A model generated the notes under the pieces. The model was given only the letters and a program-made list of their open reading frames with translations, was not told where the DNA came from and did no database searches. From the human T2T-CHM13v2.0 reference genome, Homo sapiens, in NCBI RefSeq assembly GCF_009914755.1, contig NC_060930.1: DNA of 64,000 nt. One strand, 5' to 3'. Of the stretch, positions 44,521-47,221 are shown piece after piece. Made by a program: the position numbers and the translations under genes. Each line of letters begins with the position of its first letter. The first letter of the stretch is position 1.

Positions 44521-47221
44521 TTATATTTTAAGTTCTCGGGTACATGTGCAGAACGTGCAGGTTTGTTACATAGGTATACATGTGCCATGGTGGTTTGCTG
44601 CACCCGTGAACCCTTCATCTACATTAGGTATTTCTCCTAATGCTATTCCTCCCCTAGTACCCCACCCCCCAACAGGCCCTGGTGTGTGATGTTCCCCTCA
44701 CTGTGTCCTTGTGTTCTCAGTGTTCAACTCCCACTTATGAGTGAGAACATGCATTGTTTGGTTTGCTGTTCTTGTGTTAGTTTGCTGAGAATGATGGTCT
44801 CCAATTTTATCCACATCCTGCAAAGGATATTAACCCATTTTTTATGGCTGCATAGTATTTTATGGTGTATAGGTGCCACATTTTCTTTATCCAGTCTATC
44901 ACTGATGGGCATTTGGGTTGGTTCCAAGTCTTTGCTGTTGTGAACAGTGTCACAATAAATGTACGTGTGCATGTGTCTTTATAGTAGAATGATTTATAAT
45001 CATTCTACTATATACCCAGTAATGGGATTGCTGGGTCAAATGGTATTTCTAGTTCTAGATCCTTGAGGAATCGCCACACTGTCTTCCACAATGGTTGAAC
45101 TAATTTACACTCCCAACAACAGTGTAAAAGCATTCCTATTTCTCCACATCCTCTCCAGCATCTGTTGTTTCCTGACTTTTTAGTGATCACCATTCTAACT
45201 GGTGTGAGACGGTGTTTCATTGTGGTTTTCATTTGCATTTCTCTAATGACCAGTGATGATGAGCTTTTTTTCATATGTTTGTTGGATGCATATATGTCTT
45301 CTGTTGAGAGGTGTCTGTTCATATCCTTCACCCACTTTTTGATGGGGCTGTTCGTTTTTTTCCTTTGTAAATCTGTTTAAGTTCTTTGTAGATTCTGGAC
45401 ATTAGCCCTTTGTCAGATGCATAGATTGCAAAAATTTTCTCCCATTCTGTAGGTTGCCTATTCACTCTGATGATAGTTTCTTTTGCAGTGCAGAAACTCT
45501 TTAGTTTAATCAGATCCCATTGATCTATTTTGGCTTTTGTTGCCATTGCTTTTGGTGTTTTAGTCATGAAGTCTTTGCCCATGCCAATGTCCTGAATGGT
45601 ATTGCCTAGGTTTTCTTCTAGGGTTTTTATGGTTTTAGGCCTTATGTTTAAGTCTTTAATCCATCTCGTATTAATTTTATATAAGGTGTAAGGAAGAGAT
45701 CCAGGTTCAACTTTCTACATATGGCTAGCCAGTTTTTCCAACACCATTTGTTAAATAGGGAATCCTTTCCCCATTTCTTGTTTTTGTCAGGTTTGTCAAA
45801 GATCAGATGGATGTAGATGTGTGACATTATTTCTGAGGCCTCTGTTCAGTTCCACTGGTCTATATATCTGTTTTGGTAGCAGTACCATGCTGTTTTGGTT
45901 ACTATAGCCTTGTAGTATAGTTTGAAGTCAGATAACGTGATGCCCCCAGCTTTGTTCTTTCTGTTTAGGATTATCTTGGCTATGCGAGTTCTTTTTTGGT
46001 TCTGTATGAAATTTAAAGTATTTTTTTCCAATTCTATGAAGAAAGTCAGTGGTAGCTTGATTGGGATAGCATTAAATCTATAAATTACTTTGGGCAGTAT
46101 GGCCATTTTGATTATATTCATTCTTCCTATCCATGAGTAAGAAATGTTTTTCCATTTGTTTGTGTCCTCTGTTATTTCCTTGAGCAGTGGTTTGTAGTTC
46201 TTCCTGAAGAGGTCCCCTTCACATCCCTTGTAAGTTGGATTCCTAGGTATTTTATTCTCTTTGAAGCAATTGTGAATGGGAGTTCACTCATGATTTGGCT
46301 CTCTGTTTGTCTGTTATTGGTGTATAAGAATGCTTGTGATTTTTGCACATTGATTTTGTATCCTGAGACTTTGCTGAAGTTGCTTATCAGCTTAAGGAGA
46401 TTTTGGGCTGAGATGATGGGGTTTTCTAGATATACAATCATGTCATCTGCAAACAGGGACAATTTGACTTCCTCTTTTCCTACTTGAATACTCTTTATTT
46501 CTTTCTCTTGCGTGATTGCTGTGGCCAGAACTTCCAATACTATGTTGAATGGGAGTGGTGAGAGAGGGTATTCTTGTCTTGTTCCAGCTTTCAAAGGGAA
46601 TGCTTCCAGTTTTTGCCCATCGAGTATGATATTGGCTGTGGGTTTGTCATAAATAGCTCTTATTATTTCGAGATACATTCCATCAGTGCCTAGAAGAAGT
46701 CTAATCTCTGAATATACCAATAACAAGTTCTGAAATTGAGGCAGCAATTAATATAGCTAACCACCCCAAAAAAGTCCAGGACCAGACAGATTCACAGATG
46801 AATTCTACCAGAGGTACAAAGAGGAGCTGGTACCATTCCTTCTGAAATGATTCCAAGCGATAGAAAAACAGAGACTCCTCCCTAACTCATTTTATGGGGC
46901 CAGCATCATCCTGACACCAAAACCTGGCAGAGTCACAACAAAAAAAAGAAAATTTCAGGCCAATATCCCTGATGAACCTCAATGCGAAAATCCTCAATAA
47001 AATACTAGCAAACTGAATCTTGTGGCACATCAAAAAGCTTATCCACCACGATCAACTAGGCTTCATCCCTGGGATGCAAAGCTAGTTCAACATATGCAAA
47101 TCAATAAATGTGATCCATCACATAAACAGAACCAATGGCAAAAACCACATGATTATCTCAATAAATGCAGAAAAGGCCTTTGACAAAACTCAACAGCCCT
47201 TCATGCTAAAAACTCTCAAGA
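44521..47221 (-). mobile_element. L1PA7-like, 5'-truncated with 5' inversion (minus 44521-46692, plus 46693-47219)
   Basis: L1PA7-type 3' UTR and ORF2 RT remnant ([12 protein letters not shown] 46172-46747). Perfect 13-bp TSD aaaaagtactttt at 44508-44520 and 47222-47234, followed by AA. Confidence 0.95.

What the first reader, a model, noticed from the sequence alone, without database searches (positions are those of the whole stretch)
46205..46482. 278-bp gene-conversion tract between two inverted L1s 16 kb apart, marked by a shared GG frameshift
Seen: the reverse complement of 46205-46482 aligns ungapped to 61910-62187 with only 2 mismatches (62065, 62144). The ~50 nt just outside differ at many positions (gccacagcaatcacgcaagagaaag vs gcccgggcaatcaggcaggagaagg). 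Both copies read gtgaagGGgacctc (46214-46217 and 62175-62178), shifting ORF2 from the canonical RDVKDLFKENY to RDVKGTSS. Known: such a frameshift cannot belong to an active subfamily consensus, and the hosts look like different subfamilies (L1PA7-like vs L1PA3/4-like). Inference: one copy, probably the younger, overwrote part of the other. Both TSD pairs and the THE1 collinearity are intact, so this is a non-crossover. The 2/278 divergence suggests a recent event.
Basis: partly seen in the sequence, partly recalled or inferred. Interest (0 to 1): 0.8.

Follow-up and report, generated by a model that had tools for sequence, protein, structure and literature searches.

The report
Gene-conversion patch shared by dead L1s
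A 278-base stretch of an old, decayed L1 retrotransposon copy was overwritten with sequence matching a younger copy 16 kb away; this is a real, clean, but ordinary case of repair copying between repeats.

Summary
The reverse complement of 46205-46482 matches 61910-62187 ungapped with 2 mismatches in 278. The adjoining L1 sequence differs at 33 of 210 and 39 of 257 columns. Permutations never reach such a run (0 of 2000).

The older copy A (44521-47221) differs from the majority state of other L1 copies at 6.8% of sites. Inside the tract it has none (0 of 3000 permutations), so A was overwritten. Both copies keep intact target-site duplications, so the event was a non-crossover.

- Both L1s lie on the minus strand. 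The tract is "inverted" only because it sits in the twin-priming-inverted 5' segment of copy B.
- The GG frameshift occurs in 3 of 7,942 genomic L1 copies. The third, D, lies 510 kb upstream on the same chromosome.
- B is itself unusually clean over 61899-62370 (7 of 3000 permutations). B may therefore also have been overwritten, and the original donor is unresolved.

Ectopic gene conversion between repeats is well known. These are dead L1 fragments in a gene desert. Interest is modest.

The parts
46205..46482 (-). Converted tract in L1 copy A (recipient). Maximum extent 278 bp, bounded by A/B mismatches at 46483 and 46204. It covers the ORF2 reverse-transcriptase region, including the FADD box.
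   Evidence: A has 0 derived sites in 269-270 informative columns against 17/202 and 22/245 in its flanks.
61910..62187 (+). Matching tract in L1 copy B. It differs from A at 62065 and 62144, and both differences are derived in B.
46214..46217 (-). GGGG run in A containing the 2-nt GG insertion (ORF2 frameshift), 10 nt from the 3' edge of the tract.
   Evidence: The insertion is absent from 23 of 23 comparison copies.
62175..62178 (+). The same GGGG run in B.
44521..46692 (-). L1 copy A, direct 3' part (ORF2 3' portion to the 3' end), minus strand. It is the older element (6.8% derived sites overall).
   Evidence: Self-BLAST; derived fraction 157/2299. Best genomic matches to its flank reach only 90-92% (40 of 15,192 candidates scored).
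46693..47221 (+). L1 copy A, 5' segment inverted by twin priming. It is adjacent in L1 coordinates to the direct part (46693-47223 corresponds to B 61172-61698, and 46692 corresponds to B 61700).
44508..44520 (.). Target-site duplication of A (AAAAAGTACTTTT); the second copy is at 47222-47234.
59321..60814 (-). L1 copy B, direct 3' part, minus strand (2.6% derived sites overall).
60815..62440 (+). L1 copy B, 5' segment inverted by twin priming, with about 20 nt of overlap in L1 coordinates at the junction (A 45948 against 45968). It contains the tract.
59306..59320 (.). Target-site duplication of B (CAAACCTCAATTCTT); the second copy is at 62434-62448.
61899..62370 (+). Zone of B with at most 1 derived substitution in 455 informative columns. 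It encloses the tract and runs about 180 nt further 3' in the L1 sense.
   Evidence: 7 of 3000 permutations reach it.

Best explanation
This is ectopic (non-allelic) homologous repair without crossover. A break in the old L1 copy A (44521-47221) was repaired by copying at most 278 bp from a homologous, much less decayed L1 sequence that carried a private GG insertion. The closest existing match is copy B, 15.4 kb away. The same GG marker in a third L1 copy D (G000:C6:92614419-92614448, about 510 kb upstream) is best explained by one more local exchange. The identity block around GG is at most 82 bp for B/D and 57 bp for A/D. The marker therefore spread among three dead L1 fragments within 572 kb. 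Shown: the tract, its statistical excess, A as recipient, the rarity and clustering of GG, the intact TSDs, and the independent insertions. Inferred: the repair mechanism (synthesis-dependent strand annealing or a similar non-crossover route), the order of events, and who first carried GG.
For: (1) Tract identity is 2/278 against 33/210 and 39/257 in the flanks. 0 of 2000 shuffles reach the run. (2) Polarisation used the majority state of 23 other L1 copies (23 of 27 fetched loci covered the region). Inside the tract A has 0 private derived sites, B 2 and D 5. One derived site is shared by A and B (a CpG to CpA change at 61978), and GG is shared by all three. In the flanks A has 19 and 22 private derived columns. 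(3) Across the whole element, A is derived at 157/2299 sites (6.8%). Its zero-derived run of 270 columns coincides with the tract (0 of 3000 permutations, largest 194). (4) The tract is not a slow-mutating region. 21 copies chosen without regard to it carry 2.39% derived sites there against 2.74% in the 5' flank. Each carries 3-15 derived sites in the tract, and 0 of 21 have 2 or fewer. (5) Nearest-neighbour ranks flip. B is the 44th and 41st of 46 in distance from A in the two flanks but 1st of 46 in the tract. (6) The 14-mer with GG has 12 genomic matches. 9 are not in L1 context and 3 are L1 copies A, B and D. The 23-mer ending just before the insertion occurs 7,942 times. A 30-mer centred on GG, with up to 3 mismatches allowed, finds only A, B and D plus two copies with other changes. 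(7) TSDs of 13 and 15 bp flank A and B. D's flanks are not homologous to the window, and it has no 5' inversion. These are therefore three separate insertions, with no crossover and no segmental duplication.
Against: The tract is cleaner than any candidate donor should be. B averages 2.6% derived sites but has 1 in 269 informative tract columns, and at most 1 in 455 columns over 61899-62370 (7 of 3000 permutations). D's 5 private tract changes are not shared with A or B. A simple 'B as it stood copied into A' model therefore needs either luck or an earlier overwriting of B. Apart from GG, D is no closer to A or B in substitutions than unrelated copies are: A-D has 6 differences against A-L016 with 5, of which 2 are the GG columns. 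The D link therefore rests on a single indel plus physical proximity. No read-level or cross-species data could be examined. The direction of the last A/B exchange cannot be read from the tract itself.
Confidence: 0.85

Rival explanations
1. A and B are both recipients. A GG-bearing, nearly undecayed L1 sequence overwrote B over up to about 470 bp, and overwrote A over 278 bp either directly or via B. That donor would be D soon after its insertion, or a copy now lost or absent from this haplotype.
For: B's clean zone 61899-62370 has at most 1 derived site in 455 columns (7/3000). The A/B tract equals the panel majority apart from GG and one CpG change. D carries GG, and its derived density in the tract (4/269) matches its flanks (5/202, 7/245), so the tract looks native in D. 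The counts since a common origin (A 0, B 2, D 5) are not far from equal rates (my own chi-square, about p = 0.07).
Against: In 62188-62370 B and D differ at 13 of 183 columns. These include about 5 sites where B has the panel-majority state and D shares the minority state with A, so D cannot have supplied that part. At 61963 A and B have C and D has T. If the transfer happened when D was new, the A and B tracts should carry about 2% derived sites, but A has none. No fourth GG copy exists in this genome.
Confidence: 0.3
2. GG in D arose independently by slippage in the GG of AAGGAC. Only A and B are related by conversion.
For: Apart from GG there is no significant A/B-D identity excess attributable to D. 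The B-D longest run is reached by 593/2000 shuffles. Two other L1 copies carry different small changes at the same spot, so the site can mutate.
Against: Only 3 of 7,942 copies carry GG, and all lie within 572 kb of a 3.1-Gb genome. By my estimate about 3 L1 copies with this region lie within 572 kb either side of A and B, so a second independent hit landing there has a probability of order 4e-4.
Confidence: 0.1
3. The tract is an assembly or polishing artefact: reads from one L1 were used to correct the other.
For: None from the calls. It cannot be excluded without reads.
Against: The two copies still differ at 2 sites inside the tract. The tract edges are sharp and sit inside otherwise 85% identical sequence. 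The same GG is present at a third locus, and the copies lie 15 kb apart in unique flanks with intact TSDs. From general knowledge, this assembly rests on reads longer than the whole element.
Confidence: 0.02
4. The match reflects chance or conservation: the tract is simply the most conserved part of ORF2, and GG is a subfamily variant inherited by descent.
For: The tract covers the reverse-transcriptase FADD region, which differs little between subfamilies. Only weakly diagnostic columns separate the two panels.
Against: After insertion these copies decay neutrally. Unselected copies carry 3-15 derived sites in the tract and 2.39% on average. A's flanks are 8-9% derived. GG is absent from 44 of 44 panel copies and present in 3 of 7,942 genomic copies.
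Confidence: 0.01

Closest known systems
Non-allelic (ectopic, interlocus) gene conversion between dispersed retrotransposon copies. It is described for Alu and for L1: Fawcett and Innan 2019, PMC6598467, passages read; Sen et al. 2007, PMC1920257, passages read. The latter cites Tremblay et al. 2000 on break repair in a chromosomal LINE by conversion from other LINEs, and infers an intrachromosomal conversion that placed a 377-bp segment in an L1 locus.
   Same: A short tract (hundreds of bp) of near-identity sits inside otherwise diverged paralogous repeats on the same chromosome. An old copy acquires the sequence of a younger one, and the exchange is non-reciprocal with no rearrangement. PMC6598467 (passage) states that rates depend on distance and identity and are elevated within 10 kb. 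The A-B distance here is 15.4 kb.
   Different: The marker is a private 2-nt frameshift shared by three copies spanning 572 kb. One inferred exchange would cover 510 kb or more, far beyond the distance class cited. The two nearby partners pair in inverted orientation only because of B's internal inversion.
Replacement of an old Alu by a young subfamily sequence at an orthologous locus (Kass et al. 1995, as summarised in PMC6598467, passage read; the original was not seen).
   Same: Old-element sequence is replaced by much less diverged sequence of the same family.
   Different: That case replaced the whole element and was verified with ape orthologues. This one is partial (278 of about 2,700 bp), and no orthologues were available.
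Twin-priming 5' inversion of L1 insertions (Ostertag and Kazazian 2001; recalled, and mentioned in PMC1920257, passage).
   Same: A, B and also copy C (25933-27519) each have a 5' segment in the opposite orientation that abuts the direct part in L1 coordinates. A and B are enclosed by one TSD pair.
   Different: Nothing unusual. It explains the structure of the copies, not the tract.

Membership tests
Non-crossover ectopic gene conversion | A bounded tract whose identity between paralogues far exceeds that of the flanking homologous sequence. | tested here: met
   2/278 against 33/210 and 39/257; 0/2000 shuffles.
Non-crossover ectopic gene conversion | Phylogenetic incongruence: the partners are nearest relatives inside the tract but not outside it. 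| tested here: met
   B ranks 1/46 from A in the tract and 44/46 and 41/46 in the flanks.
Non-crossover ectopic gene conversion | The recipient loses its own accumulated private changes within the tract. | tested here: met
   A has 0/269 derived sites in the tract against 17/202 and 22/245 in the flanks, and 0/3000 permutations reach the run.
Non-crossover ectopic gene conversion | A shared private marker that is not a family-wide variant. | tested here: met
   GG occurs in 3 of 7,942 copies and in 0 of 44 panel copies.
Non-crossover ectopic gene conversion | No exchange of flanks: both insertions keep their own TSD pair and the interval is not inverted. | tested here: met
   TSDs lie at 44508/47222 (13 bp) and 59306/62434 (15 bp).
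Non-crossover ectopic gene conversion | The donor is identified and unchanged, and the pre-conversion state of the recipient is seen in an outgroup or other haplotype. | not testable with these tools
   No primate or other human assemblies are held. B's own clean zone leaves the donor open.
L1 insertion with twin-priming 5' inversion (copies A and B) | The inverted 5' segment and direct 3' segment are contiguous in L1 coordinates, with a small overlap or gap at the junction and a single TSD pair around both. | tested here: met
   A: 46693-47223 corresponds to B 61172-61698 and 46692 to B 61700. B: about 20 nt of overlap (A 45948/45968). TSDs.
Subfamily assignment L1PA7-like (A) against L1PA3/4-like (B) | Diagnostic positions of the named subfamily consensus sequences. 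| not testable with these tools
   No L1 reference consensus library was available. Only relative decay was measured: A 6.8%, B 2.6%, D 2.1% derived.

The most novel reading that the evidence does not exclude
The tract in both A and B is essentially undecayed L1 sequence plus GG, cleaner than A, B or D elsewhere. One reading that the data do not exclude is that breaks in A and B were patched from a transcript or cDNA of a GG-bearing L1 (D when young, or a source no longer present), not from chromosomal DNA of a neighbour. That would be RNA- or cDNA-templated conversion of resident L1 copies in the primate germline, confined to one chromosomal neighbourhood.
Probability: 0.06. Interest if true: 0.65.

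Novelty: new member of a known kind. Interest (0 to 1): 0.3.

Why it matters
This is a clean, well-bounded natural example of sequence exchange between dispersed L1 fragments. The recipient is clear, a private indel serves as a tracer, and a third carrier lies half a megabase away.

Such events locally reset the apparent age of a repeat. Here, 278 bp of a copy that is about 7% diverged looks brand new. This matters for divergence-based dating and subfamily calling of repeats, and for estimating how far apart repeats can still exchange sequence.

There is no functional consequence. All three copies are 5'-truncated and carry other defects, and no gene lies within 95 kb.

Tried and rejected
- **Segmental duplication as the source of the shared GG.** Rejected. 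D's 10-kb surroundings match the window only in L1 and older-repeat pieces. D also lacks the 5' inversion that B has.
- **Conversion at the moment B or D was inserted.** The idea was that a fresh cDNA invaded A. Rejected as the last event. A's tract would then carry about 2-2.6% derived sites (6-7 expected), but it has 0.
- **Other conversion tracts among A, B, C and D.** None was found. The B-D, A-C, B-C and C-D longest runs were reached by 593, 471, 1691 and 406 of 2000 shuffles. The A-D signal (2/2000) lies inside the same tract and follows from A's clean state.
- **A local undecayed donor for B's 3' clean zone.** The genome search with 62188-62370 returned nothing, because all its words are too common in this genome. 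That result is uninformative.
- **Subfamily contrast between the two panels.** The panel chosen on A's flank barely differs in majority state from the panel chosen on the tract. A's flank divergence is therefore mostly private decay, and named subfamilies could not be assigned.
- **PRDM9-type 13-mer.** The motif was recalled from memory. It has 3 matches in the window (0.4 expected). One, at 59485-59497, lies in B's 3' region and none lies near the tract. No conclusion was drawn.
- **Unavailable sources.** Earlier findings of this scan were not open. The Tremblay et al. 2000 paper is not held.

Full report
**Observation**

The claim is exact. The reverse complement of 46205-46482 aligns without gaps to 61910-62187 with two mismatches, at 62065 and 62144. 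In the full colinear stretch (A 46692-45948 against B 61700-62440), 74 of 745 columns differ:
- 33 in the 210 columns on the 5' side
- 2 in the 278 tract columns
- 39 in the 257 columns on the 3' side, including a 4-nt gap

BLAST of the window against itself gives 90.1% for this stretch and 87.0% and 87.6% for the other two colinear A/B segments.

I shuffled the A-B mismatch positions over all 2526 aligned columns. The observed run with at most two mismatches was never reached (0 of 2000; largest 137 against 267 observed in that alignment).

Both copies read GTGAAGGGGACCTC, and the frame changes from ...LTRDVK to GTSS.... The two extra G are absent from 23 of 23 comparison copies.

**Anatomy**

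The two L1s are not inverted insertions. Self-BLAST and the target-site duplications show two minus-strand, 5'-truncated L1s, each with a twin-priming 5' inversion.

| Copy | Span | Direct part | Inverted 5' segment | TSD |
|---|---|---|---|---|
| A | 44521-47221 | 44521-46692 | 46693-47221 | AAAAAGTACTTTT at 44508 and 47222 |
| B | 59321-62440 | 59321-60814 | 60815-62440 | CAAACCTCAATTCTT at 59306 and 62434 |

The tract lies in A's direct part and in B's inverted segment. That is why the homology is inverted.

Both TSD pairs are intact. A crossover between inverted repeats would have inverted the interval and split the pairs, so none occurred.

**Who was overwritten**

I fetched other genomic L1 copies to polarise the differences.
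- **Panel 1:** 27 loci from a search with the tract. 23 of them span the region; L019, L021, L023 and L028 were dropped as partial.
- **Panel 2:** 29 loci from a search with A's 3' flank. 21 of them span the region; 8 were dropped as partial.

Both searches scored only 40 of 337 and 40 of 15,192 candidates, so the panels are samples, not the closest relatives.

Against the panel-1 majority, private derived columns are as follows:

| Copy | 5' flank | Tract | 3' flank |
|---|---|---|---|
| A | 19 | 0 | 22 |
| B | 11 | 2 | 10 |
| D | 4 | 5 | 7 |

Inside the tract, one derived site is shared by A and B (CpG to CpA at 61978). GG is shared by A, B and D.

Over the whole elements, at columns where at least 80% of panel copies agree, the derived fractions are:
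- A 157/2299 (6.8%)
- B 67/2546 (2.6%)
- C 32/1322 (2.4%)
- D 43/2044 (2.1%)

A's zero-derived run of 270 columns coincides with the tract and is never reached by permutation (0 of 3000, largest 194).

The tract is not intrinsically slow to change:
- Panel 2 was chosen without regard to the tract. It carries 2.39% derived sites there against 2.74% in the 5' flank.
- Its members carry 3-15 derived sites each in the tract, and none of the 21 has two or fewer.

Nearest-neighbour ranks flip. From A, copy B is 44th and 41st of 46 in the flanks and 1st of 46 in the tract. A is therefore certainly a recipient.

**The GG marker and a third copy**

- The 14-mer with GG occurs 12 times in the genome, fewer than the reversed-pattern control (30 and 20).
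- Nine of the 12 are not in L1 context. Three are L1: A, B and a copy D at G000:C6:92614419-92614448, about 510 kb upstream of the window.
- The 23-mer that ends just before the insertion occurs 7,942 times.
- A 30-mer centred on GG, with up to three mismatches, finds only A, B and D plus two copies with different changes.

GG is thus present in 3 of 7,942 copies, all within 572 kb.

D is an independent insertion. It is a minus-strand copy without a 5' inversion, its flanks are not homologous to the window, and it has a possible 11-bp TSD.

By my own estimate, independent recurrence landing this close has a probability of order 4e-4. I therefore take GG in D as shared by local exchange.

That inference rests on the indel and proximity alone:
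- In substitutions D is not specially close to A or B.
- The B-D scan is not significant (593 of 2000).
- The identity block around GG is at most 82 bp for B/D and 57 bp for A/D.

**The unresolved part: the donor**

The tract equals the panel majority apart from GG and one CpG change. It is cleaner than any extant candidate donor is on average.
- B has at most one derived substitution in 455 informative columns over 61899-62370 (7 of 3000 permutations).
- D's five private changes in the tract are not shared with A or B.

Three histories fit the data.

1. **GG arose in B.** B happens to be clean here. B converted A, and a short patch passed between B and D.
2. **GG arose in D.** D converted B early, and B later converted A. 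This explains B's clean tract. It does not explain 62188-62370, where B and D differ at 13 of 183 columns, including about five lineage-type sites. At 61963 A and B also differ from D.
3. **A lost donor.** A GG-bearing donor is no longer present in this haplotype.

I cannot separate these without orthologues.

**Timing**

The two A/B differences are both derived in B. They are either later mutations or patchy heteroduplex repair.
- Two differences in 278 is 0.72%, with a Poisson 95% interval of about 0.09-2.6%.
- With recalled mutation rates of 0.5-1e-9 per site per year, that is roughly 4-7 Myr, with an interval from under 1 to over 20 Myr.
- If the differences reflect patchy repair, this is only an upper bound.

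**Comparison with what is known**

Non-allelic gene conversion among dispersed repeats is established.
- The passages I read in PMC6598467 describe it for Alu. They include replacement of an old element by a young one, and a dependence on distance and identity with elevated rates within 10 kb.
- The passages I read in PMC1920257 cite cell-culture repair of a chromosomal LINE by conversion from other LINEs. They also infer an intrachromosomal conversion that placed a 377-bp segment in an L1 locus.
- I saw PMC8230782 only as a search listing.
- I did not find this particular locus in print, but I made no search aimed at it.

**Verdict**

The tract is a real, statistically overwhelming, non-crossover conversion tract with the old copy as recipient.
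- both elements are on the same strand with internal inversions
- a third GG carrier lies 510 kb away
- B may not be the original source

The finding is a new instance of a known process in non-functional DNA.

Noticed in passing
window 25875-27549: A third L1 copy (C) on the minus strand also has a 5' inversion. 25933-26926 is colinear with A 44524-45514, and 26926-27519 is inverted relative to A 45558-46148. All three younger L1s in the window are therefore minus-strand twin-priming products. C does not reach the tract region and shows no conversion signal.
   Followed up: partly
window 52708-54434 against 58686-59166 and 62434-63383: A set of colinear inverted repeats of 65-149 nt at 76-88% identity. 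B appears to have inserted into an older repeat whose inverted relative lies about 5-10 kb upstream.
   Followed up: no
G000:C6:92614419-92614448 (L013 3721-6076): L1 copy D is the only other genomic carrier of the GG frameshift. It is a 2.36-kb 5'-truncated minus-strand copy with no inversion and a possible 11-bp TSD (CCTTTCCTTTC). About 45 nt of non-A sequence lies between the L1 3' end and the left TSD copy.
   Followed up: partly
G000:C3:133861433-133861462 and G000:C10:116149296-116149325 (L077, L078): Two other L1 copies match the 30-mer around the insertion with three mismatches. They carry different two-base-longer variants at the same spot, which hints that this short stretch is prone to small insertions.
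   Followed up: no
window 59485-59497: A match to the recalled 13-mer hotspot motif CCNCCNTNNCCNC lies in B's 3' region (CCCCCTTCCCCCC). It is one of 3 matches in the window against 0.4 expected, and is probably just the L1 G/C-rich 3' tract.
   Followed up: no
window 62188-62370: A genome search with this 183-nt piece of B returned no candidates at all, because every word is too common in the genome. This fits the piece being close to the generic L1 sequence.
   Followed up: no
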